IMG/VR virus record: IMGVR_UViG_3300035501_000484
Span: 64,001-128,000 of that record
From: a virus
DNA: 64,000 nt
Direction: 5' to 3' (one strand)
Both the position numbers and the translations under genes were made by a program. The notes under the pieces were generated by a model. That model was given only the letters and a program-made list of their open reading frames with translations. It was not told the origin of the DNA and did no database searches. Positions within the stretch are counted from its first letter, which is position 1. Each line of letters opens with the position of its first letter. Of this stretch, positions 7,322 to 18,902 are shown in pieces.

Positions 7322-7324
7322 AAT

Positions 7325-7483
7325 TTAATTTCTCCTCTTATCTGAAATTGGATTTAATAAATATTCATCTTTTAATTTAGTATATTTAGGTTGCGGACTT
7401 ATACCTAAAACCTTTCCTAGTCCAACTGCCTCTTGATATGAAATTACCTCTTTATTTCCTACTACATAAGTTAATTTTGTCAT
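7325..7483 (-). CDS. small hypothetical protein (52 aa, not in ORF track)
   Basis: ATG at 7483 is preceded by AGAGAGGAA. Translation MTKLTYVVGNKEVISYQEAVGLGKVLGISPQPKYTKLKDEYLLNPISDKRRN. Promoter-like repeat at 7505-7550. Confidence 0.4.
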   Translation of the reverse strand: MTKLTYVVGNKEVISYQEAVGLGKVLGISPQPKYTKLKDEYLLNPISDKRRN

Positions 7484-7559
7484 TTTAAAATTCCTCTCTT
7501 TCTTTTTATTTTATATATTTATTATAACATTTTATCTTTTGTATGTCAAGTATTTTTAT

Positions 7560-7820
7560 CTATTCTTCGTATAATACACACCCATTATATTTATCATTGC
7601 TTTCATTGCTTAGAATGTAAACCTCATTTAAACACATTGCTGTACTATCTAAGCCATATTTTTTTGAAATTTCATTAATAATATAATTATATAAATTATT
7701 TTCATCTATTCTATCAGTAACATAATCATTTGTATCACATGCCTTTAAATAAGGCTCAATAGTTGTTTTATCAGCTATATCTAATTTTATCGAAGCTCTT
7801 AATTCTACTTGTACTTTCAT
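7560..7820 (-). CDS. hypothetical early protein
   Basis: 86-aa ORF. Minus-strand promoter repeat (atatatttattata…gtcaag) lies upstream at 7835-7885. Confidence 0.5.
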   Translation of the reverse strand: MKVQVELRASIKLDIADKTTIEPYLKACDTNDYVTDRIDENNLYNYIINEISKKYGLDSTAMCLNEVYILSNESNDKYNGCVLYEE

Positions 7821-7907
7821 ATTTATACCTCTCTTTCATTTGATATATTTATTATACTACTTTATCTTTTGTATGTCAAGTATTTTTTTAAATTTTTTCT
7901 TTATTAT

Positions 7908-8177
7908 CTAATCTCTTTTGTAGTTCCTCAACTTCTTTATTTGTTTTTCCCATAAGTTCCAATTTTTATAAGCGTAATTCATAATCTCTACAGCGTGTTG
8001 TACAAACATTTGTTTACTAGCAATTTCACATAACCATTGGAATACTTGATAAATTTCAATTACATAAGGACTTTTTTCAAAGTCTGAAAAATGATATACA
8101 GTGTCGGGGTGCTTAGTGCTACCACCCCAACATTCACATACTAAATCATTTTCATTATTTTTAAAAATCCTAACCAT
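7908..8177 (-). CDS. hypothetical early protein
   Basis: 89-aa ORF. Upstream promoter repeat at 8205-8250. Confidence 0.5.
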   Translation of the reverse strand: MVRIFKNNENDLVCECWGGSTKHPDTVYHFSDFEKSPYVIEIYQVFQWLCEIASKQMFVQHAVEIMNYAYKNWNLWEKQIKKLRNYKRD

Positions 8178-8219
8178 TTTTTGTTACCTCTCTTTTCTTT
8201 TTTATTTATCTTATATATA

Positions 8220-8408
8220 TTAATTATAATAAAATTCTTTTAATTTGTCAAGTGTTTTTTCATTTTCTTTTTTTAATTGATACATTCTATTTCCTAAACA
8301 AAACAGGCAACCGCCATGACAGCGACAACTTTTATCAATTTGCTCGCAGTATTTATAATAAGGTTTTCTGTGTTCCCTCCCATATTTGATAGCTTTATCC
8401 ATGCTCAT
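8220..8408 (-). CDS. small Cys-rich protein (possible zinc-binding)
   Basis: 62 aa containing CEQIDKSCRCHGGCLFC. Confidence 0.45.
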   Translation of the reverse strand: MSMDKAIKYGREHRKPYYKYCEQIDKSCRCHGGCLFCLGNRMYQLKKENEKTLDKLKEFYYN

Positions 8409-8516
8409 TTTTATTTACCTCTCTTCCTTTTCTTCATATAGTATACACCTAATACGGGATTTTTACAATAGGCAAATAGACAAATTTTCTGCGGAAAATT
8501 TATGCAACATTACTAC

Positions 8517-8600
8517 TTGACAGGACTTGGGTCGCTCACATAGAGGAGCGTATGTGAGCGACCCATGCAAGAAAAGCCTTGGGAATTTTCCAAGGCTTTT
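8517..8600 (+). ncRNA. hairpin-element family, copy D (subtype 2)
   Basis: TTGACAGG at 8517-8524. 15-bp stem 8528-8542 / 8551-8565 (TGGGTCGCTCACATA…TATGTGAGCGACCCA). Loop GAGGAGCG. Terminator at 8574-8600. Confidence 0.55.
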
Positions 8601-8665
8601 AATTTATTCATTTATTAAATTTTTATTAAATTTGCAAGGCGGATTTGCTCCGCCTTGCTTTTCTC

Positions 8666-9076
8666 TTAGGCAAGTGAGAAAAATGCCTTTTTCTTATCCT
8701 CGGTTCTTACAACCTCATTTGTAGCACACAATTTCTTAACTAGTGCTGATAGTTTCTGATTTGTCATGGTCTTAGTTTCAGTACCTTCTACATAAGTCTT
8801 TAATCTATCATCAGTCATAAGCTCTGAAATTGTAACAGGCTTATCAGTTTCAGCAAGAACAGTCTTAATAGTATCTAGGATAGCTTCATTTGCCTGCTGT
8901 GTCTTAGTGTTACCACTCTTATTAGATTTCTTCTGTAGAAGTTCAACCTCATGGTCGATAAAAGCTAAGATGTCGGCTTTATTAGCGGTTTCCACACTTT
9001 CTACAATATTTCTTACCATTTCGAAATACTGTGCCTTTGTTACCTTTACTACCTTTGTTGTGTTTGTGTTTGTCAT
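8666..9076 (-). CDS. hypothetical early protein, family A (paralog of 4272..4670)
   Basis: 136 aa, homologous to the 4272..4670 product. Tandem promoters at 9125-9166 and 9213-9253. Downstream hairpins at 8633-8657 and 8574-8600. Confidence 0.7.
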   Translation of the reverse strand: MTNTNTTKVVKVTKAQYFEMVRNIVESVETANKADILAFIDHEVELLQKKSNKSGNTKTQQANEAILDTIKTVLAETDKPVTISELMTDDRLKTYVEGTETKTMTNQKLSALVKKLCATNEVVRTEDKKKAFFSLA

Positions 9077-9651
9077 AATTCATTACCTCTTTCTTTCTTT
9101 AAAATTATTTGTTTTTGTTTCCTTTAATATATTTATTATATCATTTCTTTATTCAGTTGTCAAGACTTTTTTTAAAAATCTTTTTAAGATTTTTCTTTTC
9201 TCTTTTGTTTTTCTATATATTTATTATACTATTTTATTTTTTGTTTGTCAAGAGTTTTTTATTTTTTTTGTTGTGGGAATTACTTTACATAATTCCCAGC
9301 AACTGCCTTGAGGCTCCCATCAGGATTGAAAAAAATAACATTATCTTGAATAACTCTAATTCCTTTAGCTCTTGCCTCAGCTCTAAAAACATAATCACTT
9401 TTATACTTTTTTAAAAAATCTGCTTTACTCATTTTTGTTTACCTCTTTCCTTTTCTTTTTATATATTTATTATATCATTTCTTATAAGGTTTGTCAAGAC
9501 TTTTTTTAAAATTTTTTATTTTTTTCTTGGTGTTGTTTCTGTCTTTCCCTTACCTTATATAAATATTATACTAAAATTTTTTATTAATTACAATAGTTAA
9601 AATGACTAAAATTATAGGATTATTTTTGTGTATTTTTTTTATTAAAAATCC

Positions 9652-9771
9652 TTGACAAAAAGTGCGGCGAGTGGTATAATAGAATTTTCGGGCAGCCACG
9701 TAGAGCAGCGTACGTGGCTGCCCCGTCAAGAATAAAAAAGAAAAGAGAGGTCTGAAAAGACCTCTCTAAGC
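9652..9771 (+). ncRNA. hairpin-element family, copy E (subtype 1 promoter)
   Basis: TTGACA at 9652-9657, 17-nt spacer, TATAAT at 9675-9680. Stem GGGCAGCCACGTA (9690-9702) pairs with TACGTGGCTGCCC (9711-9723). Loop GAGCAGCG. Terminator at 9748-9771. Confidence 0.6.
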
Positions 9772-10074
9772 ATAATCACCCTCATTATCTTGCCATTCTT
9801 CTTTTGTAATGATATCAAAATTACCCCAACAATCTGACCTAAAAAATTCTTGCGCCTGCTCGATAGCGTCATCATAATCTTCTAAGGTTTCATAGTCATC
9901 ACTATCGATATCTTCTGTTGCTAAATACATTAATGACTCTGTATGGTCTTGGACTAATTCATCTAAGTATTCATTCAAATGTTCTTTTGTTTGCTCTTGT
10001 TTAAAACAGATATATTTATCCTCATCAAAACCGCAGTAAGGAGTTGTTAAATAAAAATGAACGTATTGTTCCAT
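9766..10074 (-). CDS. hypothetical highly acidic early protein
   Basis: 102 aa, D/E-rich (DSDDYETLEDYDDAIEQAQEF). Long 5' UTR with 21-bp tandem repeats at 10102-10146. Promoter at about 10170-10215. Confidence 0.55.
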   Translation of the reverse strand: MEQYVHFYLTTPYCGFDEDKYICFKQEQTKEHLNEYLDELVQDHTESLMYLATEDIDSDDYETLEDYDDAIEQAQEFFRSDCWGNFDIITKEEWQDNEGDYA

Positions 10075-10212
10075 ATTTTCACCTTCTTTCTTTTAGGGCT
10101 GAACTTCTTTTCCTAAGCAATCAACTTCTTTACCAAGAAATCAATCGCCTGTACTTGTTAGAAGTCCGACACCCTTTATTTATATTTATTATATCATTTT
10201 ATTTTTCTTTTG

Positions 10213-10455
10213 TCAATAGATTTTATCAATTTTCATTGTTGTAATAGAAAAACAGTCTATAGGAGATAAACGACACACATCTTCTAATCGGTAGTATTTT
10301 CCATTTTCATCAAAAAAATCATCATCAGTTCTTTCAGCAATTTTAGTATTAATACAATTTTTAGCTTTTTCTTCAGTTGTAAAAATACCTATCGCTTTTT
10401 CACAACCATTTGCTATGTCAATGCACTCATTAACTATATACAATTTATTTATCAT
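10213..10455 (-). CDS. hypothetical early protein
   Basis: 80-aa ORF. Promoter repeat at 10470-10510. Confidence 0.5.
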   Translation of the reverse strand: MINKLYIVNECIDIANGCEKAIGIFTTEEKAKNCINTKIAERTDDDFFDENGKYYRLEDVCRLSPIDCFSITTMKIDKIY

Positions 10456-10506
10456 ATTTGATTGCCTCTCTTTTATTTGATATATTTATTATAGCATTTT
10501 ATTTTT

Positions 10507-10728
10507 TTATTTATCGCCCCATTTTAATTCAACTTTTCCAAAAGTTATTTTACAAGTAATAAGAATAAAAAGAAGTTCTTTATAACTTAAAATTGGAATA
10601 CAAGCAAAATATCCATTAAGAATAATTAATACTTGTTTAATTAATAATGGTGGAATAGCAATAAAGATAATTAATACTAATATTAATTTAACAATGCTAT
10701 TTACTATTTTTATATACTCTTCGTTCAT
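10507..10728 (-). CDS. small membrane protein
   Basis: 73 aa with two hydrophobic helices. Promoter TTGACC-17-TATACT at 10762-10790 (minus). Confidence 0.45.
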   Translation of the reverse strand: MNEEYIKIVNSIVKLILVLIIFIAIPPLLIKQVLIILNGYFACIPILSYKELLFILITCKITFGKVELKWGDK

Positions 10729-10761
10729 TTTTTTGTTACCTCTCTTTCATTTGATAATATA

Positions 10762-10790
10762 AGTATATCATAATATAGGATTAAGGTCAA
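10762..10790 (-). promoter_or_regulatory. early promoter, divergent from hairpin element F
   Basis: Minus strand: TTGACC (rc of 10785-10790), 17 nt, TATACT (rc of 10762-10767). It is back-to-back with the conserved upstream segment of the plus-strand hairpin module. Confidence 0.5.
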
Positions 10791-10839
10791 TGTACAGAAT
10801 AACTAAAATTTTGGTAAAAAATTTGTGCAACATTACTAC

Positions 10840-10920
10840 TTGACAGGAACTGGCTCAGCAACGTAGAGTAGCGTACGTTGCTGAGCCACTCAAAAGAAAA
10901 AAGAGGCTCAAGCCTCTCTT
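10840..10920 (+). ncRNA. hairpin-element family, copy F (subtype 2)
   Basis: TTGACAGG at 10840-10847. 15-bp stem 10851-10865 / 10874-10888 (TGGCTCAGCAACGTA…TACGTTGCTGAGCCA). Loop GAGTAGCG, identical to copy C, whereas the stems differ by compensatory changes. Terminator at 10899-10920. Confidence 0.55.
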
Positions 10921-10930
10921 AATAAACTAT

Positions 10931-11320
10931 TTACATTTTTAAACCTCTTTCCATAAGATATTGTATAGCCTTTTCACTGTCAAACCAGTTTAAAACGACT
11001 GATAAAGGTGGATTATCCTCTTTAAATTCGACAGTCATATACATATTATCTAATTGTTTAGTTTTCCATTCTTTTATGTCTTTGATATGTTTTATTGTCA
11101 TTGAATTAAAAAATGCAATTACTTGACCTTTTTTAAATTGCCATATATTAAAAGGTAAAAATATCCCATACTTACTATAATTTTCTTTTAAATTATCCCA
11201 TGTAAAATAAATTTTTTGATTTTGGATATTTTTTTCATCTGCCAAAGTTCTATTTGTAAAAGAGCTTATTAATTCATCTTTATAGTAAAATTTAAAGAAC
11301 CCTATATAAAAATTTGTCAT
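10931..11320 (-). CDS. hypothetical early protein
   Basis: 129-aa ORF. Terminator 10899-10920 downstream. Confidence 0.55.
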   Translation of the reverse strand: MTNFYIGFFKFYYKDELISSFTNRTLADEKNIQNQKIYFTWDNLKENYSKYGIFLPFNIWQFKKGQVIAFFNSMTIKHIKDIKEWKTKQLDNMYMTVEFKEDNPPLSVVLNWFDSEKAIQYLMERGLKM

Positions 11321-11324
11321 TTTA

Positions 11325-11450
11325 TTACCTCTCTTTTTTCTTTAATTCTTTTAATTTGTTAATTTGTTCGCCATATGTTGGCGGTTTGCCATTTACCGCT
11401 TTATATCTCCATATCCAGTTATTTAGAACTTGTTGAATTTTATCTGTCAT
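11325..11450 (-). CDS. small hypothetical protein (41 aa, not in ORF track)
   Basis: ATG at 11450 preceded by GAAGG. Translation MTDKIQQVLNNWIWRYKAVNGKPPTYGEQINKLKELKKKER. Confidence 0.3.
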   Translation of the reverse strand: MTDKIQQVLNNWIWRYKAVNGKPPTYGEQINKLKELKKKER

Positions 11451-11516
11451 AACCGCCAACCTTCTTTCTTTTCTTTATATATTTATTATACTACTTTATT
11501 TATCATTTGTCAACAG

Positions 11517-11795
11517 TTATTCTTCAACCACTGTTAAAAAATTTAAACATTTAGATTTTTCATCATACAAAATATGCAAGTGTCCTTCGTCTGCCACACA
11601 TTTCATAGTAGAGTGATTAATGACTTCTAACATTGTTAAGTCAGACATTTCTACATTTTCTTCTAAAGATACGCTATCTACAATATGTGGGATTATGATT
11701 TCATTCTCCGACTTCTCAATAAAATCAACTTCCATGAATGATAAAAAATTTTTAATTCTAGCAAAACTATTTCTAATAAAAATATTGTGTTCCAT
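11517..11795 (-). CDS. hypothetical early protein
   Basis: 92-aa ORF. Promoter-like sequence at 11830-11870. Confidence 0.5.
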   Translation of the reverse strand: MEHNIFIRNSFARIKNFLSFMEVDFIEKSENEIIIPHIVDSVSLEENVEMSDLTMLEVINHSTMKCVADEGHLHILYDEKSKCLNFLTVVEE

Positions 11796-11881
11796 TTTAT
11801 TACCTCTTTCTTTAAATGTTTTTTGTTTACATTTATATTATCTCTTTTGTATGTCAAGCATTTTAATTAAATCTTTTTCTA

Positions 11882-12349
11882 CTAGTTGCGATATTCCGCA
11901 ACTAGTAAATCAACTAATTTAATTAAAATATTTTCATTTGCATTAATTGTATCGCCTAAATTCCAACCAATTCTGATTTTTTCATTGTCATCTATTAAAA
12001 TTTGATAGCCGCCCTTTTTTCTAGTGCAATCGGCTTTTGTAGTGCCATATTTTACAAGATGAATTTCATCATATGGAAACTGATATTTTGCAAGCCATTC
12101 TTTTTTTGCTTTTCTAACTTTTTCATCATATTCTTTTGAGCTATCTTTTGCCAACCAACTTGTGATTACAATTTCCCAACCATTAGTTTTTAATAATCCT
12201 AAGATACTTGCAAGCGTGTCCATATCATACATTGGTTTTGCAATTTCATATGGTCTTGCATTTTCACTTCTCAAATCAACTAACCAATTTTCAACTCCAT
12301 ATAAATTTGCTAAAGTGCCGTCCATGTCAAATACTAATACTTTATTCAT
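11882..12349 (-). CDS. HAD-superfamily phosphatase, 5'(3')-deoxyribonucleotidase-like
   Basis: N-terminal VLVFDMDGTLANL matches the HAD motif I (DxDGT). Size and organisation match NT5C/YorS-like nucleotidases. Confidence 0.65.
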   Translation of the reverse strand: MNKVLVFDMDGTLANLYGVENWLVDLRSENARPYEIAKPMYDMDTLASILGLLKTNGWEIVITSWLAKDSSKEYDEKVRKAKKEWLAKYQFPYDEIHLVKYGTTKADCTRKKGGYQILIDDNEKIRIGWNLGDTINANENILIKLVDLLVAEYRN

Positions 12350-12442
12350 TTTTATTACCTCTCTTTTCTTTTCTTTATATATTTATTATAATACTTTATT
12401 TTTTATTTGTCAATAGTTTTTTTGAAAAAAGCTAAATTTTTT

Positions 12443-12889
12443 TTATTTAGCTTTTTTCAATTTTTCTAGCGTTCTTTCAACTACTATTTGAGCACCATTA
12501 AATTTAATTTGCACTTGTTTACCATTAATTTCTAAATCACCACTTACATAAAATGGTACATTGTCTTTACCTCTAAATTCTTGACCATTCATTTCAGAAA
12601 TAATTTTTTCAAACTGTACACCCTTATTATAATCACCATTTAAAATGTTTTCATTTCCAATTGATACAGCTCCTTTTTTAATTAATTGTTTTTGATAATT
12701 TTGAGGCAATCTTAATTGTAATTTTGCACAACCGCCCTTTTTACTACTTTCATGCTCAACTCTCATGTATCTTGGCATAATTTCGTTAACTTCTATCATA
12801 TAAACTTCATGTTTATAAATAAATCCTAAAATATAGCTATCTGCGGCTGAAAATTTTCTATAATTTCTAATCATTGTTTGTTTTGTCAT
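12443..12889 (-). CDS. hypothetical early protein
   Basis: 148-aa ORF. Promoter at about 12915-12960. Confidence 0.55.
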   Translation of the reverse strand: MTKQTMIRNYRKFSAADSYILGFIYKHEVYMIEVNEIMPRYMRVEHESSKKGGCAKLQLRLPQNYQKQLIKKGAVSIGNENILNGDYNKGVQFEKIISEMNGQEFRGKDNVPFYVSGDLEINGKQVQIKFNGAQIVVERTLEKLKKAK

Positions 12890-13174
12890 GGTCTTTTACC
12901 TCTTTCCTTTTCTTTATATATTTATTATAGCACGTTTAATGTGACTTGTCAACTACTTTTTTAAAATTTTTTTATTTTCCCCAATGGGGCTGTCAGTCAC
13001 CTTAAACCAACCGCCTAGCCATATACTAAACGACCAATCCAAGTAGTGTGACCTCCGCAACCCCTTTCCTTTATCTTATATATATATTATACTCCCACCA
13101 ACCGCAGAAGTCAATATACAAAATGACTAAAATTTCGGGATAAAATTTATGCAATTTTTTTCATCTTTTTCTCT

Positions 13175-13288
13175 TGACAAAAGTTGCTGGGTATGATATA
13201 ATAGATTTTTCGGCGTGCTGGCGAAGAGCAGCGTCCGCAAGCACGCCTTGGAAAATAAAAAGAAAAGAGAGGTTTTTAACCTCTCTTA
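13175..13288 (+). ncRNA. hairpin-element family, copy G (subtype 1 promoter)
   Basis: TTGACA at 13175-13180, 17-nt spacer, TATAAT at 13197-13202. Imperfect stem GGCGTGCTGGCG (13212-13223) with TCCGCAAGCACGCC (13234-13247). Loop AAGAGCAGCG. Terminator at 13266-13288. Confidence 0.55.
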
Positions 13289-13291
13289 TAA

Positions 13292-13516
13292 TTAATTTTT
13301 AATTAAGCCTTCATTAATAAGTATTTCATAAAACAATTTGCAAGTATCTTTATATTCTTCATCATTTTCAGCTATATATTTATAATCATTTTCACTAGCT
13401 TCATCTGGTACACCTTCAGCAATCCATAATTCAAAATTTTCTTCATCTTGCACTTCATCTCTTATGTATTTATCCATACTTTTTAAACACTGTACCTTTG
13501 CTTCTATTATTGTCAT
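13292..13516 (-). CDS. hypothetical acidic early protein
   Basis: 74 aa. Terminator 13266-13288 downstream. Confidence 0.5.
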   Translation of the reverse strand: MTIIEAKVQCLKSMDKYIRDEVQDEENFELWIAEGVPDEASENDYKYIAENDEEYKDTCKLFYEILINEGLIKN

Positions 13517-13597
13517 TTTGTTTACCTCTCTTTCCTTATCTTATAAATATATTATAATATAAATTTGTAAGTATGTCAATCCTTTTTATAAAATTTT

Positions 13598-13717
13598 TTA
13601 AATTATTTTAATGTAAAATAATCCATTACTAATTGAATAAGTAAAATCATACTGATTAACTTCTAAAAATCTTTTCACTTTTTCAAATGCCTCTCTATTT
13701 GTATACATTATTGCCAT
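13598..13717 (-). CDS. small hypothetical protein (39 aa, not in ORF track)
   Basis: ATG at 13717 with AAGAGAGGTAAAAT RBS. Translation MAIMYTNREAFEKVKRFLEVNQYDFTYSISNGLFYIKII. Confidence 0.3.
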   Translation of the reverse strand: MAIMYTNREAFEKVKRFLEVNQYDFTYSISNGLFYIKII

Positions 13718-13784
13718 TATATTTTACCTCTCTTTTCTTTATATATTTATTATAACATTTTATCTTTTGTATGTCAAGTATTTT

Positions 13785-13973
13785 TTATTCTTCTTCCATT
13801 TCATTTTCAATGTAGCTTTCAAATGTATTAAAGCCTGTTCTAGCATATACTATATTATCTAATATTGTGTTCCAATCGCCATTACAAATACATCTAACTA
13901 AATTAATTTCATTTGCGGTTGCAATTCCATATTCTATTATCATATCATATTTAATACATTCGTTTGTGTTCAT
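13785..13973 (-). CDS. hypothetical early protein
   Basis: 62-aa ORF. Promoter-like sequence at 13995-14045. Confidence 0.45.
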   Translation of the reverse strand: MNTNECIKYDMIIEYGIATANEINLVRCICNGDWNTILDNIVYARTGFNTFESYIENEMEEE

Positions 13974-14053
13974 TTTTTATTACCTCTCTTTTCTTTTCTT
14001 TATATATATAGTATACACCTTGCTATTTATATTGTCAAGACTTTTTTTAAATT

Positions 14054-14236
14054 TTCTTGAGCGGGAGTCGAACCCGCATTTACATTGTGCGTCGCATTAA
14101 GGATTACCACAGTATATTTATGTACCCAATTGTACAACCTTGCCTATCACCTGCTACCTGTTTCGCCATGAATTTACATAGGAATCGAACCTACACAGAC
14201 AGAACGCCAACAGCTTTTCCATTAAGCTATCAAGAA
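14054..14236 (-). ncRNA. tRNA-like composite element (two T-arms, one D-arm, long-range acceptor pairing); not a canonical tRNA
   Basis: Minus strand. Candidate 5' acceptor strand UUCUUGA is the rc of 14230-14236. Then UA, then D-arm GCUU-AAUGGAA-AAGC (rc of 14213-14227). T-arm 2 GUAGG-UUCGAUU-CCUAU is the rc of 14178-14194. T-arm 1 GCGGG-UUCGACU-CCCGC is the rc of 14061-14077. It is followed at once by UCAAGAA (rc of 14054-14060), which is exactly complementary to the candidate 5' acceptor strand. An insertion of about 120 nt separates the D-arm region from T-arm 1. No standard anticodon arm was found by eye. Confidence 0.35.
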
Positions 14237-14300
14237 ATAATTAATTTATTTTCTATAATTATAATACCATGTTTTTATTAATTTGTCAATAGTTTTTTTA

Positions 14301-14444
14301 TTATTTTTTATAAGTATACATAATAGTAAAGCCTGTTCTTACATCAGTATACATTGTGCAAAAAGCAATGTTTGGATTATTCTTTACTTTATTATAATAA
14401 TTAATCATTTGACCTTTGAATTGGAATGTTTTTGTATATGTCAT
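14301..14444 (-). CDS. small hypothetical protein (47 aa, not in ORF track)
   Basis: ATG at 14444 with AGAGAGGTAAACACC RBS. Translation MTYTKTFQFKGQMINYYNKVKNNPNIAFCTMYTDVRTGFTIMYTYKK. Confidence 0.3.
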   Translation of the reverse strand: MTYTKTFQFKGQMINYYNKVKNNPNIAFCTMYTDVRTGFTIMYTYKK

Positions 14445-14883
14445 GGTGTTTACCTCTCTTTCTCTCTTTCTATATTTATTATAGCACGTTTTCAGAAGTC
14501 TGTCAAGAGATTTTTTAAAAAAATTTTTTTATTTTCTATTCAGTTCTCTTTCCTTACCTTCTATATATAGTATACTACATTATACTAATAGAGTCAATAT
14601 ACAAAATGCACAAAATAAAATAATAAATTTTGTATAAAATGCTGAAATGCGGGAACCGCCTTACGAACCTAAGTTCTCGTTTTCTAACTGGAATTAGTTG
14701 CAACTAACCATGATAAGGCAAAACGAAAGCTGCGCGGCAGCTTTCGACCCGCCCAATTGTTTGAATTTTAGGAACAAAATAAAAAAGACCAAAAAACTCG
14801 TTTTTCACAAAATTTTTCTAGCCTTAGGTATCTTGGAGCTGAGCCGACCCGCACATGACCATGTACGAAATCGCTTGAAAGAA

Positions 14884-15051
14884 TTATTTCAAGAATGTAG
14901 CAATTGCTTTAAAACATACGTCCGCATTATCTTGAGAATGTGTATCTTCTTGTTCGCTGAAATAATTCATTGATGCATTAAGTAAATCTTTTACTGGTAT
15001 AAACTCAAATACTAACTGTAATGCGGCGAGTTCATTCAAATTATTGCCCAT
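14884..15051 (-). CDS. small hypothetical protein (55 aa, not in ORF track)
   Basis: ATG at 15051 with AAGGGAG RBS. Translation MGNNLNELAALQLVFEFIPVKDLLNASMNYFSEQEDTHSQDNADVCFKAIATFLK. Confidence 0.35.
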   Translation of the reverse strand: MGNNLNELAALQLVFEFIPVKDLLNASMNYFSEQEDTHSQDNADVCFKAIATFLK

Positions 15052-15195
15052 TGCATAAACTCCCTTCTTTATTTACTTTATATATATATTATATAATAAA
15101 TTTTTTAAAAAATCAATAAAAGAAAATTAATCAAGCTTTATAGAAACATAGACCGACCGCCCGCATGAAAAGAGAGGTTGAAAAACCTCTCTTAT

Positions 15196-15468
15196 TTATT
15201 TCCAACCTCTTTCTTCTTTAATTTTTTCGTATCTCTCTTTATTCTCTTGCTCTATCTTTTCTTTATCATATACTCTCATTTTTGTTTTTGTATATCCATA
15301 CTGTGTTAATTCTCTATTACTCCAATATCTTTTATTACAAATTTTAATAATTCCGTCCTCTTGAATTTTCTTTTTATTATCTATAATATATTGTTTACTA
15401 GGAACTTCTACTAATGTACTAACTGGTTTATAACCTTGATTTGAAATTAATGTTACTTGAATTATCAT
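15196..15468 (-). CDS. hypothetical basic early protein
   Basis: 90-aa ORF, K/E/R-rich C-terminus. Confidence 0.5.
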   Translation of the reverse strand: MIIQVTLISNQGYKPVSTLVEVPSKQYIIDNKKKIQEDGIIKICNKRYWSNRELTQYGYTKTKMRVYDKEKIEQENKERYEKIKEERGWK

Positions 15469-15537
15469 TTTATTTACCTCTCTTTATATATTTATTATAA
15501 TACGCTTAATTATAAGTTTATTAAGATTTCAGCCTAT

Positions 15538-15672
15538 TTATGAAGGCTGAAATCTTATTATTTGCCCATGTTTTCTAATTTCTATTTTTTTCTCTTGAGC
15601 ACTCATACCATGATACCATGCGTATGTTCCATCTTCAAATAAATACCAACCTTGTGTTTTTGTTCTTGCCAT
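15538..15672 (-). CDS. small hypothetical protein (44 aa, not in ORF track)
   Basis: ATG at 15672. Its upstream region is an exact 88-bp copy of the upstream region of 15762..15971. The 3' end runs through hairpin 15526-15553. Confidence 0.35.
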   Translation of the reverse strand: MARTKTQGWYLFEDGTYAWYHGMSAQEKKIEIRKHGQIIRFQPS

Positions 15673-15676
15673 AATT

Positions 15677-16064
15677 TTTATCCTCTCTTTCCTTTTCTTT
15701 ATATATTTATTATATACCTTATTAGTTATGCTGTCAAGACTTTTTTAAAAATTTTTTTATTTTATTTAAGCTCCCAATTTCTGTTATTTATATAAATATT
15801 ATTACCATAAAATTTTCCAATTGGTTCAGCGTTTTTTGCTACTATTCCAACGATATCTGTCACTTTATTTTGACCCCAAAAGCCATCTCTATCTTGAGTA
15901 TCTTCTACAAACTCTATTTCTGTATTATCGTCCATGTTTTTAATTATTTCCATTAATTCTCTTTTTGTCATTTTTATTTATCCTCTCTTTCCTTTTCTTT
16001 ATATATTTATTATATACCTTATTAGTTATGCTGTCAAGACTTTTTTAAAAATTTTTTTATTTTT
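15677..16064. repeat. exact 88-bp duplication of a promoter/RBS region
   Basis: 15677-15764 is identical to 15977-16064 (ttatcctctctttccttttctttatatatttattatataccttattagttatgctgtcaagacttttttaaaaatttttttatttt). Each copy lies upstream of a different small minus-strand gene. Confidence 0.7.
15762..15971 (-). CDS. hypothetical early protein
   Basis: 69-aa ORF. Upstream region 15977-16064 is identical to 15677-15764. Confidence 0.5.
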   Translation of the reverse strand: MTKRELMEIIKNMDDNTEIEFVEDTQDRDGFWGQNKVTDIVGIVAKNAEPIGKFYGNNIYINNRNWELK

Positions 16065-16125
16065 GTCTTGCTTTTTTCTTTTCTTCATCTTATGTATTTA
16101 TTATAGCATTGTTTACTACATACGT

Positions 16126-16178
16126 CAATAGACAAAATACACAAAATACCGCTTTGCTTTTGTGCATTTTGTCTATTG
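16126..16178. repeat. 21-bp inverted repeat (1 mismatch), 11-nt spacer
   Basis: CAATAGACAAAATACACAAAA at 16126-16146 and TTTTGTGCATTTTGTCTATTG at 16158-16178. The left arm equals the conserved 'upstream segment' motif of the hairpin-element family. Confidence 0.55.
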
Positions 16179-16229
16179 TTTTTATGTCAGTCTATTTTAA
16201 ATTACATGTGTTATTTTATCCGCCCTTAA

Positions 16230-16490
16230 ACTAGCAGTTAGTTGAACTAATATAAATTAGTCTGAACTACTTTTTGTTAGTTCCAGCTTACATTAGTTAG
16301 TGGTATCTAACTGTAATGAGTTTACACTAATTTATAAGACAAAACTTTTTTACTTTACATTTTAAGTTAGTCTAATCTAACTCAAGTTAGTTGCGACTAG
16401 TTCTAGTTAGTGATATCAATCTGGGATTAATCCTGCCTAACTTGAGTTAGCTTTTTCAAACAACAAATAATTGCAACTAACTCAAGTTAG
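16230..16490. repeat. cluster of CTAACT/AGTTAG half-sites including three 14-bp palindromes
   Basis: Palindromes CTAACTCAAGTTAG (16377-16390), CTAACTTGAGTTAG (16438-16451) and CTAACTCAAGTTAG (16477-16490). At least eight further AGTTAG or CTAACT half-sites in the same region. Non-coding region. Confidence 0.6.
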
Positions 16491-16829
16491 AAACCTCGGA
16501 TTTGCGCGACCAAAGCCGCGCCAATTTTAATTAAAGTAGATATAAGATTAAACTATTTTATATTTTATTAATCAAATTTTATTTTTATTATTCAATTTTA
16601 TTGAAATATAATATTATATTTAATTATTAATTCAATATTTTTTATTATTTAATATATATTTATTGTCCCGCATAATTAAAAAATAATAATATAATATTCT
16701 GGGCGTGTCTCAATAAAACTATCTAAAAAAATTCTCTCTAGCTACACAGCATACCTATGACAAAAGGTGGGGCAGTAATTTTGGGATTTTATTTTTTTGA
16801 AATGTAAAATGTGTTATGCCACGTACAAA

Positions 16830-16927
16830 AAATCTCCAAATGTATTTTAAAAATAAAAATATGAAAAATAAAATCTCCAAATATATTTTAAAATATAAAA
16901 AATGAAATCTCCAAATATATTTTAAAT
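16830..16927. repeat. three tandem direct repeats (~23-bp core, 34-41-bp period)
   Basis: aaatctccaaatgtattttaaaa (16830-16852), aaatctccaaatatattttaaaa (16871-16893) and aaatctccaaatatattttaaat (16905-16927). Confidence 0.65.
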
Positions 16928-17143
16928 ATCTTCCTCGCACAAACGAATTATATTATCAACTTCAATTTCTGCATTATCTAAAATTTTTTGTAAATCATTA
17001 AGGTCAAAATAAAAATATTTTCTTACTGTAATTAAAGTTTTTTTATATTCATCTGAAATAGCTAATTCATTAATCATATCGTTCAAAACTTTTATTATTT
17101 TATCTCTTTTTTCTATTTCTACTTTCATTTCTTTTATAGTCAT
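16922..17143 (-). CDS. hypothetical protein
   Basis: 73-aa ORF with predicted coiled-coil character. Confidence 0.5.
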   Translation of the reverse strand: MTIKEMKVEIEKRDKIIKVLNDMINELAISDEYKKTLITVRKYFYFDLNDLQKILDNAEIEVDNIIRLCEEDI

Positions 17144-17153
17144 ATTTACCTCC

Positions 17154-17390
17154 TTACAATGAAGATGCTATATCAATATCTGTATTATAAATAACATCTT
17201 TCGCATAATTAACTTCCCTATTTAAAACTACATATGCTGTTCTTAATGCAGATAATTCTTCTTCTGTAAATCTCTTAGAGTCATTAATCATATTAAGAAG
17301 ATTAGGTAATACTTCATCTTCCATTCTTTTTACTTTTTCTTCTAAGTGTCCAATTTTCATATCATACCTCCAAAAACATAGATTCCCCAC
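17154..17390 (-). CDS. hypothetical protein
   Basis: 78-aa ORF. Overlaps the upstream gene by about 34 nt. Confidence 0.5.
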   Translation of the reverse strand: MGNLCFWRYDMKIGHLEEKVKRMEDEVLPNLLNMINDSKRFTEEELSALRTAYVVLNREVNYAKDVIYNTDIDIASSL

Positions 17391-17755
17391 GTCAAAATAA
17401 TCTGTACCAAATGTATCAACTGGTCTTGTATTAAATTAATAGCTTTCTTATTAGCCTTCAAATCATCAACTATAGCATGAATACCCCAATTGATTACAAA
17501 AGTCAAAAGCAACATATTAAGCGGAATCCCCGACCCCGCCGCAACAATAGGAATATGAATCATAAAAGTCCAACTAAAAGCGTGTTCCATCAAAGCCATT
17601 ATATAATCATTCTTATATAAATCATCCGCAGCGTTCTTTTCCCACCATGACCTCTGCTTAGCAGAAGCTAACCAACCTTGTAAATAATAATCATCAACTA
17701 TATGAAAAAATATCATTGATAATAATAAAATTAATATTTTCATATCATACTCCAT
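17357..17755 (-). CDS. integral membrane protein (3-4 TM helices)
   Basis: 132 aa with hydrophobic segments ILILLLSMIFFHIV, FMIHIPIVAAGSGIPLNMLLLTFVINWGIHAIV and IILTWGIYVFGGMI. Confidence 0.55.
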   Translation of the reverse strand: MEYDMKILILLLSMIFFHIVDDYYLQGWLASAKQRSWWEKNAADDLYKNDYIMALMEHAFSWTFMIHIPIVAAGSGIPLNMLLLTFVINWGIHAIVDDLKANKKAINLIQDQLIHLVQIILTWGIYVFGGMI

Positions 17756-18021
17756 TTTATCGTAGTTTTAAGCATCGCAATTTCATTTCTAACGCCCTGT
17801 AATCTATCTTCAATGCTCTTTATAGCGGCTTCCCGCGGTATATAAAATGTTATTCCTTCCACAATAAAATCTAAAGGCATATTATTAAGAATTTCTTTAT
17901 TATGTAATATTGTATATATTTGCTCTTCTTCTCTTTCTAACTCTTGTATACGTTTTAGAGTTTTTGTTATATTATTTATTGTTTCATCTTCTATTGGATG
18001 AAATACTTGTTTCTCTTCCAT
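17740..18021 (-). CDS. hypothetical protein
   Basis: 93-aa ORF overlapping its neighbours (operon-like). Confidence 0.5.
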   Translation of the reverse strand: MEEKQVFHPIEDETINNITKTLKRIQELEREEEQIYTILHNKEILNNMPLDFIVEGITFYIPREAAIKSIEDRLQGVRNEIAMLKTTIKWSMI

Positions 18022-18039
18022 GTTGTTATAATACCTCTT

Positions 18040-18267
18040 TTATAAAATATCTACATTACCCGCATTTAAATAATTTTGATAATTAGTAGCAATATCTCGT
18101 ACATAAGACGCGGCAATTGTCAAATCTGTAGGCGATATATGAAATTCATTTAAACTTAATATCACTTCTTCATCTGACCTTAATAGTTCATTTTTTGCCT
18201 TGGAAAATATCTCCGCAACTTCCTTTATCTTAGTAAGTTTATCTTGTGTTTCATTAATATTGTTCAT
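18040..18267 (-). CDS. hypothetical protein
   Basis: 75-aa ORF. Confidence 0.5.
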   Translation of the reverse strand: MNNINETQDKLTKIKEVAEIFSKAKNELLRSDEEVILSLNEFHISPTDLTIAASYVRDIATNYQNYLNAGNVDIL

Positions 18268-18352
18268 TATTTTATTTTACCTCCGCGGTTGCTCGATTAG
18301 TCCTCCTCTAATCCAGCTTTATTTTCCTTACAGCCCTTATATTTATTTTATT

Positions 18353-18820
18353 TTATAATTCTCCTTCATATGTACATTGACCATTAAAAAATGGGCACTC
18401 TAAATCACATTGGTGCATTTCATCATATTTACAATGCGGGATTTTAAAATTAATAACAATTTCAGCTTCATCGAATTGTTTTTTCCATGAGGCTTGATTA
18501 TAGAATCTAGCGGCCATCCGCCACCCATACTTATTTAAAATATAATCATACATTTGTCTTAATCTATACTCTTGATTAAGACGATTTTCTTTCTTTTCTG
18601 CTTTTGTAAGAGGTCTAATCATATATGGTTCTTCTTTAGGAAATCTGCACCACATTATTTTTGAATCCTCTTGCTGTTCTTTTGTGGCTTCATTCCAATA
18701 TATTTTAGGTCGTGGATTAATGCGGATTCCGCCTGGTCTAACTGTGCTAATATGATTTTCCGCATCTAATATAGCTGCCCCTAAACCAGTCGCTACAAAT
18801 ATCTTATTATTTTCATACAT
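18353..18820 (-). CDS. hypothetical protein with C-terminal Cys/His cluster
   Basis: 155 aa. C-terminal HCKYDEMHQCDLECPFFNGQC. First gene of the leftward unit, divergent from the plus promoter at 18903. Confidence 0.55.
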   Translation of the reverse strand: MYENNKIFVATGLGAAILDAENHISTVRPGGIRINPRPKIYWNEATKEQQEDSKIMWCRFPKEEPYMIRPLTKAEKKENRLNQEYRLRQMYDYILNKYGWRMAARFYNQASWKKQFDEAEIVINFKIPHCKYDEMHQCDLECPFFNGQCTYEGEL

Positions 18821-18902
18821 ATTTATTTACCCTTCTTTATTTTTTATAATATAATTATATCATTTATTTTTTTGAAAATCAATTAAAGTTTTTCGTCCTA
18901 GT

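What the first reader, a model, noticed from the sequence alone, without database searches (positions are those of the whole stretch)
14054..14236. tRNA-like composite element with two T-arms and 183-nt-spanning acceptor complementarity
The minus strand carries two perfect T-arm motifs:
- GCGGG-UUCGACU-CCCGC, the rc of 14061-14077;
- GUAGG-UUCGAUU-CCUAU, the rc of 14178-14194.

It also carries a D-arm GCUU-AAUGGAA-AAGC two nt after a 7-nt segment UUCUUGA. That segment is exactly complementary to the 7 nt (UCAAGAA) that follow T-arm 1. The arrangement gives a tRNA-like acceptor/D/T frame with a ~120-nt insertion where the anticodon arm should be. Neither half folds as a standard tRNA.

Candidate explanations:
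- an intron-containing or degenerate tRNA;
- a tmRNA-like or tRNA-mimic RNA;
- a relic of tRNA 3'-end sequences.

It sits in the middle of the early block, in a region where only spurious plus-strand ORFs were called.
Basis: seen in the sequence. Interest (0 to 1): 0.55.

Follow-up and report, generated by a model that had tools for sequence, protein, structure and literature searches.

The report
Two-unit tRNA-like RNA gene in phage
An uncultured phage carries, under its own early promoter, a 183-base RNA gene made of two broken tRNA-like units whose outer ends pair into one tRNA-shaped frame; it cannot decode codons and is most likely a tRNA mimic, but no function has been shown.

Summary
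On the minus strand, 14236..14054 holds a 7/7 Watson-Crick acceptor helix, a canonical D-arm two bases after the 5' strand, and two perfect T-arms. None of these frames appeared in 100 shuffles of the window.

It is not a standard tRNA, a tmRNA or any Rfam family. ARAGORN's intron mode calls "tRNA-Leu(UAA) with a 106-nt intron", but it makes such a call for 89% of shuffled interiors, so the call is uninformative.

A tRNA covariance model I built splits the element into two tandem tRNA-like units, each with its own D-arm and T-arm. Neither unit has a usable anticodon arm. Each unit's own acceptor strands pair only at chance level. The 5' strand of unit A pairs perfectly with the 3' strand of unit B.

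The element sits alone between two sigma-70-type promoters, with no ORF, in a block of about 35 promoter-plus-small-gene cassettes. It is a G+C island. It is absent from relatives that keep both flanking genes. Related phages carry other non-decoding tRNA-like units.

Best reading: an early-expressed, non-decoding tRNA mimic processed by RNase P and RNase Z. The main rival is a decayed pair of tRNA genes. No covariation or expression data exist.

The parts
14261..14289 (-). Sigma-70-type promoter of the element: -35 TTGACA at 14289..14284, a 17-nt spacer ending in TG, and -10 TATTAT at 14266..14261. The inferred transcription start is near 14254, which gives a leader of about 17 nt.
   Evidence: 11 of 12 consensus matches, TG extension. 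The start site is inferred from spacing and has not been mapped.
14054..14236 (-). The whole composite tRNA-like element, 183 nt, 42.6% G+C.
14230..14236 (-). Acceptor 5' strand UUCUUGA (the 5' end of unit A). U8 and A9 follow at 14229..14228.
   Evidence: It pairs 7/7 Watson-Crick with 14060..14054.
14213..14227 (-). D-arm 1, GCUU-AAUGGAA-AAGC, with A14, A15, G18, G19 and A21 in place.
14203..14211 (-). 5' strand GUUGGCGUU of the long helix that takes the place of the anticodon stem ("stem X").
   Evidence: It is present in the unconstrained minimum-free-energy fold. Pair probabilities are 0.58-0.77. The L003 SNP G->A at 14211 changes a G.U pair to A-U.
14178..14194 (-). T-arm 2, GUAGG-UUCGAUU-CCUAU (the T-arm of unit A). 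It is identical to the T-arm of the tRNA-Asn of Bacillus phage Izhevsk.
   Evidence: Nearest-neighbour thermodynamics alone prefers a competing hairpin.
14169..14236 (-). Unit A: a tRNA-like unit consisting of acceptor 5' strand, D-arm 1, 18 nt in place of the usual 23, T-arm 2, and then GUAAAUU where an acceptor 3' strand would be. GUAAAUU pairs only 3/7 with the unit's 5' strand.
   Evidence: 17.9 bits, rough E about 1e-4; Rfam tRNA 20.4 bits, local match.
14172..14179 (-). First copy of the 8-nt direct repeat AUGUAAAU, overlapping the end of T-arm 2.
14122..14135 (-). D-arm 2, GUAC-AAUUGG-GUAC (the D-arm of unit B): four Watson-Crick pairs and a loop with A14, G18 and G19.
   Evidence: aligned to the D-arm of the tRNA model.
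14059..14139 (-). Unit B as matched by the model: UU, D-arm 2, a 38-nt anticodon region, UAAAU, and T-arm 1. The 7 nt where its own 5' acceptor strand would lie (GGCAAGG, 14144..14138, just outside this match) pair only 3/7 with UCAAGAA.
   Evidence: 14.6 bits, rough E about 1e-3.
14084..14093 (-). 3' strand GACGCaCAAU of stem X, with one bulged A.
14078..14085 (-). Second copy of AUGUAAAU. Its last six bases form the variable loop before T-arm 1, and U48 could pair with A15.
14061..14077 (-). T-arm 1, GCGGG-UUCGACU-CCCGC.
14053..14060 (-). Acceptor 3' strand UCAAGAA (14060..14054) plus discriminator A (14053). No CCA is encoded; the next bases are AAU.
14010..14038 (-). Promoter of the next cassette (the 62-aa gene). 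It marks the 3' boundary of the unit. No terminator lies between it and the element.
   Evidence: The nearest minus-strand terminators are at 14746..14724 and 13287..13265.

Best explanation
The element is a gene for a non-decoding, tRNA-shaped RNA.

It is built from two tandem tRNA-derived units. Unit A resembles tRNA-Asn. The origin of unit B is unknown. The 5' half of A (acceptor strand, D-arm 1, 5' strand of the stem) pairs with the 3' half of B (3' strand of the stem, variable loop, T-arm 1, acceptor strand). Together they form one outer cloverleaf frame. That frame keeps the elbow contacts: U8-A14, G18/G19 with the T-loop, and A15-U48.

The inner halves, T-arm 2 followed by D-arm 2, lie in the order of a circularly permuted tRNA. 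They sit on a 9-bp helix where the anticodon stem should be.

Shown here: the sequence anatomy; the dedicated consensus promoter; the absence of an ORF and of a terminator; the G+C island; and the cassette-like presence or absence among relatives.

Inferred:
- The RNA is made immediately after infection.
- Host RNase P cuts before U1.
- RNase Z cuts after A73, and CCA is then added.
- This releases a stable RNA of about 186 nt. It would also cut the co-terminal early transcripts that read through the element.
- The RNA acts as a tRNA mimic. It would be a decoy or sponge for a host factor that recognises the acceptor/T-arm/elbow of tRNA, for example a tRNA-directed defence nuclease or a tRNA-processing enzyme.

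My confidence in the decoy step alone is about 0.2.
For: - **Frame.** The acceptor is 7/7 Watson-Crick, placed exactly 2 nt before D-arm 1 and directly after T-arm 1. No such frame occurred in 100 shuffles. The two T-loop motifs compare with 0.01 expected.
- **Two units.** My covariance model finds two tandem units, each with a D-arm and a T-arm. All four arms are perfectly paired. The units' own acceptors pair 3/7, which is the random level, whereas the swapped pair is 7/7. Neutral decay of two tRNA genes would not be expected to produce this pattern.
- **Stem X.** It appears in the minimum-free-energy fold with pair probabilities of about 0.7. The only SNP in the element turns G.U into A-U in this stem.
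- **Transcription unit.** The element has its own promoter (TTGACA, 17-nt spacer, TG, TATTAT) and no ORF. It is the clearest ORF-less unit among about 35 promoter-plus-ORF cassettes.
- **Composition.** The element is 42.6% G+C, in the top 1.2% of 183-nt windows. The interior alone is 43%.
- **Cassette behaviour.** Promoter plus element is an extra cassette. In L297-L299 the homologous 47-aa and 63-aa genes are adjacent without it.
- **Conservation.** The element is identical in all variants found apart from the one SNP in L003. In L301 it has 0/183 differences, while the next 80 nt have 10.
- **Relatives.** Related phages carry other clearly non-decoding tRNA-like units. In L026 a GAAA tetraloop replaces the anticodon loop. 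L021 has a unit without a D-arm, with a GAAA-capped stem and fold z = -4.7. L298 has its own promoter and a 6-nt loop.
Against: - There is no covariation. Every copy found is nearly identical, and the one supporting SNP is a single event.
- The low divergence could reflect mosaic recombination and the way the loci were found, not selection.
- The element as a whole, and its interior, fold no better than shuffled sequences. The z-score is -0.69 for the whole element and +0.4 to +1.05 for interior segments.
- Nearest-neighbour thermodynamics gives T-arm 2 a pair probability of 0.01 and prefers a competing hairpin.
- The stretch between T-arm 2 and D-arm 2 forms no acceptor-like stem.
- The distribution is narrow: one phage lineage, with no homolog in IMG/VR, GenBank phages, JGI metagenomes or GTDB genomes at the sensitivity available.
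- There are no expression data and no partner protein. No RtcB, Ro60 or RNA ligase was found among the 30 ORFs scanned.
Confidence: 0.45

Rival explanations
1. Decaying tRNA genes. Two neighbouring phage tRNA genes, one of them a tRNA-Asn, lost their function, and the element is a transcribed or silent pseudogene pair. The A-5'/B-3' complementarity would be left over from a rearrangement such as an internal duplication or an insertion into one tRNA gene.
For: - Both anticodon arms are destroyed, and neither unit passes a tRNA threshold.
- The interior folds no better than shuffles.
- Unit A aligns with a phage tRNA-Asn apart from a 5-nt gap in the anticodon loop.
- The 8-nt repeat AUGUAAAU flanks 86 nt and looks like the scar of a rearrangement.
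- Distribution is limited to one lineage, and the element is absent from relatives.
- Fragments and expanded tRNA frames are common in phage tRNA arrays.
Against: - All four arms and both T-loops match the consensus perfectly in a genome of about 30% G+C. Only the two inner acceptor strands are at random level, while the outer pair is 7/7.
- The element has a dedicated consensus promoter, and there is no tRNA array anywhere in the 64-kb window.
- The G+C island extends through the interior that does not resemble tRNA.
Confidence: 0.28
2. A cis-acting processing signal, working as tRNA-like "punctuation" in the way plant-mitochondrial t-elements or the MALAT1/mascRNA module do. Its job would be to let RNase P and RNase Z cut the overlapping early transcripts, or to give the downstream mRNA a protective 5' structure. 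The released RNA would be a by-product.
For: - There is no terminator between 14724 and 13287 on the minus strand. Transcripts from the promoters at 14506, 14289, 14038, 13777 and 13579 should therefore be co-terminal and read through the element.
- L021 has a tRNA-like minihelix 4 nt after a stop codon.
- t-elements are documented in PMC1920247.
Against: - A promoter only about 17 nt upstream and another directly downstream leave little that needs separating.
- An acceptor/T minihelix would be enough for cleavage. Two D-arms, two T-arms and 183 nt are not needed.
Confidence: 0.12
3. An intron-containing tRNA. About 106 nt would be spliced out to give a working tRNA; ARAGORN's call is tRNA-Leu(UAA).
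For: ARAGORN -i calls tRNA-Leu(taa) with a 106-nt intron at position 30/31. Group I introns exist in related phages. Expanded tRNA frames that pass the Rfam tRNA threshold exist in other phages.
Against: - The same call is made for 445 of 500 shuffled interiors.
- The proposed loop CUUAAUG has U at position 37, and the stem has two G.U pairs.
- The 12-nt variable region cannot form the arm that a tRNA-Leu needs.
- The L003 SNP would create an A x C mismatch in that stem.
- There is no Intron_gpI match, nor any ribozyme match, even at E<=10. At 106-135 nt the insert is shorter than group I introns as I recall them (roughly 200 nt or more).
- No splice junction gives a loop with U33 and R37 when read directly from the sequence.
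Confidence: 0.06
4. A miniature tmRNA-like molecule, with a tRNA-like domain plus an internal tag reading frame (GCG AAA ... UGG UAA; 21 codons counting the AUG).
For: The T-arm matches Rfam tmRNA (E = 0.0011 for 17 nt). An open frame of 21 codons lies at 14169..14104.
Against: - ARAGORN's tmRNA mode is negative.
- The Rfam score is 13.8 bits against a gathering score of 47, and covers the T-arm only.
- Position 3:70 is C-G, not the G.U needed for alanine charging.
- A true D-stem is present, unlike in tmRNA.
- No pseudoknots are evident.
- An open frame of this length is unremarkable by chance.
Confidence: 0.02
5. A small protein gene: a 36-codon TTG-initiated ORF at 14137..14027, preceded at 8 nt by AGGUGAU.
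For: The ORF and the Shine-Dalgarno-like sequence are present.
Against: - Nearly all the flanking early genes use ATG with an AGAGAGGTAA-type ribosome-binding site.
- Gene callers did not call this ORF on identical contigs.
- It would have to overlap T-arm 1 and the acceptor strand by chance.
- An open frame of 36 codons is not unusual in a stretch of 43% G+C.
Confidence: 0.03

Closest known systems
YrlA-type bacterial and phage Y RNAs (tRNA-like domain; Chen et al. 2014, PMC4201824; bioRxiv 10.1101/312249)
   Same: Both are non-decoding tRNA mimics that keep the D-loop/T-loop elbow. The inner part of this element has the YrlA order: stem strand, T-arm, intervening segment, D-arm, stem strand. 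This is the order of a circularly permuted tRNA. One YrlA, from M. smegmatis, is cut by RNase P and receives CCA.
   Different: In this element the RNA ends lie in a true open acceptor stem, not in a Ro-binding stem. The GNCGAAN0-1G motif is not met; the sequence here is GGCGAAAC, and it is in the wrong place. No acceptor-like hairpin forms between T-arm 2 and D-arm 2. No Ro60/Rsr or RtcB gene was found in the ORFs scanned. There is no Rfam match.
tmRNA tRNA-like domain
   Same: Both have an acceptor stem plus T-arm, with a long insertion between the 5' and 3' halves. T-arm 1 resembles the tmRNA consensus T-arm.
   Different: This element has a full D-arm, no G3.U70, no pseudoknots, and is 183 nt long where the Rfam tmRNA model has 374 positions. 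ARAGORN and Rfam are both negative.
tRNA genes with an expanded or interrupted anticodon arm in phage tRNA arrays (seen here: L090/L120, L045/L077, L034, L126)
   Same: Both have an intact acceptor/D/T frame with tens of extra bases where the anticodon arm should be. Some carry an internal hairpin that looks like a T-loop.
   Different: Those lie inside tRNA arrays, are 100-150 nt long, and L090 scores 54.9 bits with Rfam tRNA. This element stands alone under its own early promoter, has a second D-arm, and scores below threshold. No sequence homology to them was shown.
tRNA-like processing modules: plant-mitochondrial t-elements (PMC1920247), MALAT1/mascRNA, gammaherpesvirus tRNA-miRNA chimeras (the last two from my own knowledge)
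   Same: All are tRNA-like folds that do not decode and are recognised by RNase P and RNase Z.
   Different: Those are single minimal tRNA-like units attached to another functional RNA. Here no attached cargo is evident.
tRNA scaffold used in RNA engineering, in which the anticodon arm is replaced by a cargo RNA (Ponchon and Dardel; from my own knowledge)
   Same: The architecture is the same: a tRNA frame carrying a foreign insert on the anticodon stem. In the engineered case this gives processing and stability in bacteria.
   Different: That one is an engineered construct. Here the insert is itself tRNA-derived and is not measurably structured.

Membership tests
Canonical tRNA (Rfam RF00005) | 7-bp acceptor stem followed by a discriminator base | tested here: met
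   UUCUUGA/UCAAGAA pair 7/7 Watson-Crick, followed by A73.
Canonical tRNA (Rfam RF00005) | D-arm and T-arm with the conserved elbow nucleotides (U8, A14, G18, G19, G53, U54, U55, C56, A58, C61) | tested here: met
   All are present in D-arm 1 and T-arm 1, and mostly also in D-arm 2 and T-arm 2.
Canonical tRNA (Rfam RF00005) | 5-bp anticodon stem and 7-nt loop with U33 and R37, one base after the D-stem | tested here: not met
   135 nt lie between D-arm 1 and T-arm 1. No such arm exists in either unit. ARAGORN's default mode finds nothing.
Canonical tRNA (Rfam RF00005) | Score at or above the family's gathering threshold | tested here: not met
   No gathering-level match. The best local match scores 20.4 bits against 29. 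My own model gives 17.9 and 14.6 bits.
tRNA with a group I intron | Intron with the group I catalytic core | tested here: not met
   No RF00028 match even at E<=10, although the same library finds such introns in L020 and L021. The insert is only 106-135 nt.
tRNA with a group I intron | Removing the intron restores a canonical anticodon arm | tested here: not met
   ARAGORN -i's solution has U37 and two G.U pairs. It is no better than what 89% of shuffled interiors yield. A natural SNP breaks it.
tmRNA | G3.U70 alanine identity pair | tested here: not met
   Position 3:70 is C-G.
tmRNA | Detected by tmRNA models, with pseudoknots and a tag frame | tested here: not met
   ARAGORN's tmRNA mode is negative. 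Rfam tmRNA matches the T-arm only, at 13.8 bits against 47.
YrlA / Y RNA | Ro60-binding motif GNCGAAN0-1G near the 5' end, in a stem formed by the RNA termini | tested here: not met
   The only similar string is GGCGAAAC, which is internal and fails the motif. The termini form an acceptor stem.
YrlA / Y RNA | T stem-loop, closed acceptor-like stem-loop and D stem-loop, in that order | tested here: inconclusive
   T-arm 2 and D-arm 2 lie in that order inside stem X. The 41 nt between them form no stable stem (z = -0.8).
YrlA / Y RNA | Encoded next to a Ro60/Rsr gene, often with RtcB | tested here: not met
   No TROVE or RtcB domain was found in the 30 ORFs scanned. Not every ORF of the window was scanned, and the rest of the genome is unseen.
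Viral 3' tRNA-like structures (Tymovirus type) | Match to the family model | tested here: not met
   12.5 bits against a gathering score of 40.
tRNA-like RNase P/Z processing modules | Cleavage by RNase P at the 5' end and by RNase Z at the 3' end of the tRNA-like fold | not testable with these tools
   The substrate features are present: a 12-bp acceptor/T stack, U at position -1, and no encoded CCA. No enzymatic or RNA-end data exist.

The most novel reading that the evidence does not exclude
The element would be a new kind of phage early RNA: a "double-elbow" tRNA mimic. An outer tRNA frame, assembled from the outer halves of two tRNA units, would carry an inner module shaped like a circularly permuted tRNA.

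It would belong to a wider, undescribed repertoire of non-decoding tRNA mimics in this phage group. Other members would include the GAAA-capped units of L021 and L026, and the L298 unit. These RNAs would be used immediately after infection to occupy or mislead host factors that recognise tRNA, for example tRNA-directed defence nucleases.
Probability: 0.2. Interest if true: 0.75.

Novelty: new variant of a known kind. Interest (0 to 1): 0.48.

Why it matters
Phage tRNA genes are usually discussed as decoders, or as spare parts against anticodon nucleases. If this RNA is functional, tRNA shape alone, without any anticodon, would be a commodity that phages express at the very start of infection.

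It would also show that such mimics can be assembled from two tRNA units by swapping which halves pair.

It bears on annotation too. Standard tools either miss the element or, in intron mode, give a confident-looking but meaningless isotype.

The same search turned up many expanded, nested or multi-T-arm tRNA frames in unrelated phages. This points to a poorly charted class of tRNA-derived RNAs.

Tried and rejected
- **ARAGORN and Rfam.** ARAGORN's default and tmRNA modes, and Rfam at gathering thresholds, found nothing. Rfam at E<=10 gave only partial tRNA and tmRNA T-arm matches, with no ribozyme, intron or Y-RNA match.
- **ARAGORN intron mode.** It called tRNA-Leu(UAA). I rejected the call after the shuffle control.
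- **Small ribozymes.** I inspected the sequence by eye for HDV-like (theta) and hammerhead cores, prompted by AUGGCGAA and CGAAAC. The required P1 strand and CUGAUGA partners are absent. The theta-ribozyme paper (PMC10879173) gave no usable consensus sequence.
- **Recoding and a suppressor tRNA.** The distant relative phAss-1 uses genetic code 15 and has tRNA-Sup(CUA). This window and its closer relatives use the standard code, and no CUA, UCA or UUA loop fits.
- **Attachment site.** No host or phage tRNA shares the T-arm plus acceptor or the 5' half, and no integrase was seen among the ORFs examined.
- **Mobile insertion with an 8-bp target duplication.** There are no terminal inverted repeats and no other copy in the window.
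- **Antisense target in the window.** Nothing beyond 12-nt chance matches.
- **Homolog searches.** I searched GenBank phages by DNA, ran eight IMG/VR pattern scans, one metagenome scan and one GTDB scan, and looked up homologs of the flanking proteins. Only near-identical copies turned up. L194 and L277/L284 share CCUAUGUAAA after a T-loop, but their proteins are unrelated to those of this window, and the match is compatible with chance.
- **Selection test from divergence.** Inconclusive because of mosaicism and ascertainment bias.
Full report
**1. Setting**

The window comes from an uncultured phage of about 30% G+C. Its portal protein is 72% identical to that of a human-faecal "Bacteriophage sp." fragment. 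It is 39% identical to that of phAss-1, a gut phage of the "code 15 clade".

Unlike phAss-1, this window and its closer relatives use the standard genetic code.

Positions of roughly 2,000 to 18,900 form a minus-strand early block. It holds about 35 near-consensus sigma-70-type promoters, and almost every one is followed by a strong ribosome-binding site and a small ORF. ARAGORN finds no tRNA anywhere in the 64 kb.

**2.

On the minus strand the order of features is:
- UUCUUGA at 14236..14230, then UA;
- D-arm GCUU-AAUGGAA-AAGC at 14227..14213;
- 135 nt that include T-arm 2, GUAGG-UUCGAUU-CCUAU, at 14194..14178;
- T-arm 1, GCGGG-UUCGACU-CCCGC, at 14077..14061;
- UCAAGAA at 14060..14054, directly after T-arm 1, then A.

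The two outer 7-mers are 7/7 Watson-Crick complementary. GGTTCGANTCC occurs only at these two places in the window, against 0.01 expected. A scanner for the whole frame finds one hit in the window and none in 100 dinucleotide shuffles.

The nucleotides that build the tRNA elbow and core are all present in the outer frame: U8, A14, A15/U48, G18, G19, A21, G53-C61, U54-A58, U55 and C56.

**3. What standard tools say, and why it is not a tRNA, tmRNA or known family**

ARAGORN's default and tmRNA modes are negative, and so is Rfam at gathering thresholds.

At E<=10, Rfam gives only two relevant partial matches. One is a local tRNA match of 20.4 bits covering D-arm 1 plus T-arm 2, with 13 nt in place of the anticodon arm. 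The other is a 17-nt match of T-arm 1 to tmRNA, at 13.8 bits against a gathering score of 47. No intron, ribozyme or Y-RNA family appears.

I kept the acceptor/D/T frame fixed and shuffled the inner 135 nt. ARAGORN -i still called an intron-bearing tRNA in 445 of 500 cases, with every isotype represented. The call therefore confirms the frame and says nothing about the interior.

The proposed anticodon arm is also poor. It has two G.U pairs and U at position 37, its 12-nt variable region cannot form the arm of a tRNA-Leu, and a natural SNP would break it (see section 5).

**4. Anatomy: two tandem tRNA-like units with swapped pairing**

I built a covariance model from 26 phAss-1 tRNAs plus two tRNA-Gln genes. 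I ran it without filters over 13500-14900. It reports two adjacent minus-strand matches.

- **Unit A**, 14236..14169, 17.9 bits, rough E about 1e-4. It has the acceptor 5' strand, UA and D-arm 1. About 18 nt follow where 23 are expected, then T-arm 2, then GUAAAUU in the place of an acceptor 3' strand.
- **Unit B**, 14139..14059, 14.6 bits, rough E about 1e-3. It has UU and a second D-arm, GUAC-AAUUGG-GUAC, at 14135..14122. A 38-nt anticodon region follows, then UAAAU and T-arm 1.

All four arms are fully paired. The units' own acceptor strands are not: A-5' against A-3' pairs at 3 of 7 positions, and B-5' against B-3' also at 3 of 7. That is what random sequence gives. A-5' against B-3' pairs at 7 of 7.

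The same swap holds one level further in. GUUGGCGUU, just after D-arm 1, pairs with GACGCaCAAU, just before the variable loop of unit B. This gives a 9-bp helix with one bulge ("stem X"). Stem X appears in every unconstrained minimum-free-energy fold and has pair probabilities of 0.58-0.77 (in that run my D-stem constraint was offset by one base).

The outer cloverleaf is therefore the 5' half of A plus the 3' half of B. What remains inside stem X is T-arm 2 followed by D-arm 2. This is the order seen in circularly permuted tRNAs and in the tRNA-like domain of YrlA Y RNAs.

Unit A resembles a tRNA-Asn. It starts with U1. It aligns with the tRNA-Asn of Bacillus phage Izhevsk apart from a 5-nt gap in the anticodon loop, and the T-arms are identical. 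BLAST E is 7, so this is a lead and not proof.

**5. Comparative evidence is thin**

Exact-protein look-ups of the two flanking genes returned the element in JGI contigs. L002 is 100% identical to the window. L003 is about 2.6% diverged over 3.2 kb.

Across all variants the element shows one substitution. It is G->A at 14211, in L003. It turns the first G.U pair of stem X into A-U, and it would make an A x C mismatch in ARAGORN's stem.

L301 was found through a flanking protein that is 97% identical. There the element has 0/183 differences, while the next 80 nt have 10. The upstream gene is equally unchanged, so a recombination breakpoint explains this as well as selection does.

More distant homologs of the 62-aa gene (60-80% identity) have no element. 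In L297-L299 the 47-aa and 63-aa genes are separated only by a promoter. Promoter plus element therefore behaves as an extra cassette, like the protein cassettes around it.

No homolog was found in GenBank phages, IMG/VR, the metagenome collection or GTDB genomes. No "parent" tRNA with the same acceptor was found either.

**6. Evidence for and against function**

For function:
- The element has a dedicated promoter (TTGACA, 17-nt spacer, TG, TATTAT) and no ORF.
- All tRNA-like arms are perfectly preserved in an AT-rich genome.
- The pairing pattern is selective: the outer pairs are perfect and the inner ones random.
- The G+C island extends through the interior. The element is 42.6% G+C, in the top 1.2% of windows.
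- Related phages show the same theme. L026 has a promoter- and terminator-bounded RNA whose tRNA-like module carries a GAAA tetraloop instead of an anticodon loop (R1 17.9 bits). L021 has a 59-nt unit made of acceptor, GAAA-capped stem and T-arm, 4 nt after a stop codon (fold z = -4.7). L298 has a 70-nt tRNA-like unit under its own promoter, with CUA in a 6-nt loop.

Against function:
- There is no covariation and there are no expression data.
- The whole element and its interior fold no better than shuffles (z = -0.69, and +0.4 to +1.05).
- Nearest-neighbour thermodynamics prefers a hairpin that competes with T-arm 2.
- No stem forms between T-arm 2 and D-arm 2.
- No plausible partner was found. 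There is no RtcB, Ro60 or RNA ligase among the 30 ORFs scanned. There is only a weak HAD/PNKP-phosphatase-like ORF at 11882-12349.

**7. Most likely mechanism**

Shown: the anatomy, the promoter, the lack of a terminator up to 13287..13265, and the cassette behaviour.

Inferred:
- Early transcription by host RNA polymerase.
- Folding of the outer frame into an L shape.
- RNase P cleavage before U1; position -1 is U.
- RNase Z cleavage after A73, because no CCA is encoded, followed by CCA addition.
- Together these would release a stable RNA of about 186 nt that cannot decode.

I commit to "non-decoding tRNA mimic" at about 0.45. Within that, I regard a decoy or sponge for a host factor that reads the acceptor/T-arm/elbow as the most plausible role, at about 0.2. 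The same cleavages would also cut the co-terminal early transcripts. That is the basis of the processing-signal rival.

The main rival is a decayed pair of tRNA genes (0.28). Intron-containing tRNA, tmRNA-like RNA and small-protein readings are each below 0.1.

**8. Comparison with known systems and novelty**

The element works most like YrlA-type tRNA mimics and like tRNA-scaffolded RNAs. It fails the membership tests for tRNA, tmRNA, group I intron tRNA, YrlA and viral TLS (see the membership table).

It is best filed as a new variant of a known kind, namely tRNA-derived non-decoding RNAs. Its unusual features are the two-unit, swapped-pairing architecture and its position as a stand-alone early cassette.

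I score interest as moderate (0.48). The structure is real and odd, but its function is unproven and its distribution is narrow.

Noticed in passing
window 12953-13114 (minus strand): A second early unit without a convincing ORF. A TTGACT-17-TATAAT promoter is followed by a long hairpin of about 95 nt, rich in G.U pairs (GGGGUUGCGGAGGUCAC...GUGACUGACAGCCCC; the fold of the 162-nt stretch is -44.7 kcal/mol). It may be another early non-coding RNA.
   Followed up: partly
window 10060-10216 (minus strand): A strongly structured leader of about 90 nt lies between a consensus promoter and the ORF that starts at 10074 (the fold of the 157-nt stretch is -31.5 kcal/mol).
   Followed up: no
window 2900-3195 (minus strand): The most G+C-rich stretch of the window (48.6%). 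It contains a 10-bp GC hairpin and a repeated motif, ATATGCCC(C/G)CCTTTTT(T)GCTAGTT(G/A)TTTGAC, each copy ending in a -35-like TTGAC. Its function is unknown.
   Followed up: no
L126 13625-13771 (IMG/VR contig): A complete tRNA-Lys(UUU), including CCA, is nested between nucleotides 34 and 35 of an otherwise perfect tRNA-Gln(UUG) frame, which is followed by G-CCA. Excision of the inner tRNA by RNase P and RNase Z would leave two halves of the outer tRNA that would then need ligation.
   Followed up: partly
L194 about 9929-10140, minus strand (reverse-complement positions 1564-1775): A 212-nt frame, GCCACUU...AAGUGGC, encloses four T-arms. It lies directly after an RtcB RNA-ligase gene and before a tRNA-Gln. 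One of the T-arms plus its flank (GUAGGUUCAAUUCCUAUGUAAAU..CAGGUGAU) resembles T-arm 2 of the window element.
   Followed up: partly
L090 9789-9904, L120 (same element), L045 and L077 (119-nt element): These are tRNA frames of 116-119 nt in phage tRNA arrays. The anticodon arm is replaced by a long irregular arm that contains a T-loop-like hairpin. Rfam tRNA scores L090 at 54.9 bits with a 56-nt local end. Other expanded frames of 100-150 nt were seen in L034, L056, L067 and L102.
   Followed up: partly
L298 2222-2291; L026 4033-4105 (minus); L021 1544-1606 (minus): Relatives of the window phage carry other tRNA-like units that cannot decode. L298 has a 70-nt unit under its own promoter with CUA in a 6-nt loop. 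L026 has a unit with a GAAA tetraloop in place of the anticodon loop, inside a longer RNA bounded by a promoter and a terminator. L021 has a 59-nt unit without a D-arm and with a GAAA-capped stem, 4 nt after a stop codon.
   Followed up: partly
window 11882-12349 (minus strand): An early 155-aa ORF with weak similarity to HAD phosphatases of the polynucleotide-kinase (PNKP) or 5'-3' deoxyribonucleotidase type (Pfam 25 bits against a cut-off of 27.6; PHROG E = 2e-7). Homologs in relatives carry the same faint hit.
   Followed up: partly
window 23097-23936; L021 14838-15071 and L020 9492-9725: The window has an HNH/NUMOD homing-endonuclease ORF. Two relatives have a group I intron (100 bits). 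Mobile introns and endonucleases therefore circulate in this phage group.
   Followed up: no
window 14027-14169 (minus strand): Two small open frames lie inside the element. One has 21 codons from AUG (14169..14104) and no Shine-Dalgarno sequence. The other has 36 codons from UUG (14137..14027), with AGGUGAU 8 nt upstream. AGGUGAU is complementary to the 16S rRNA 3' end (from my own knowledge).
   Followed up: partly
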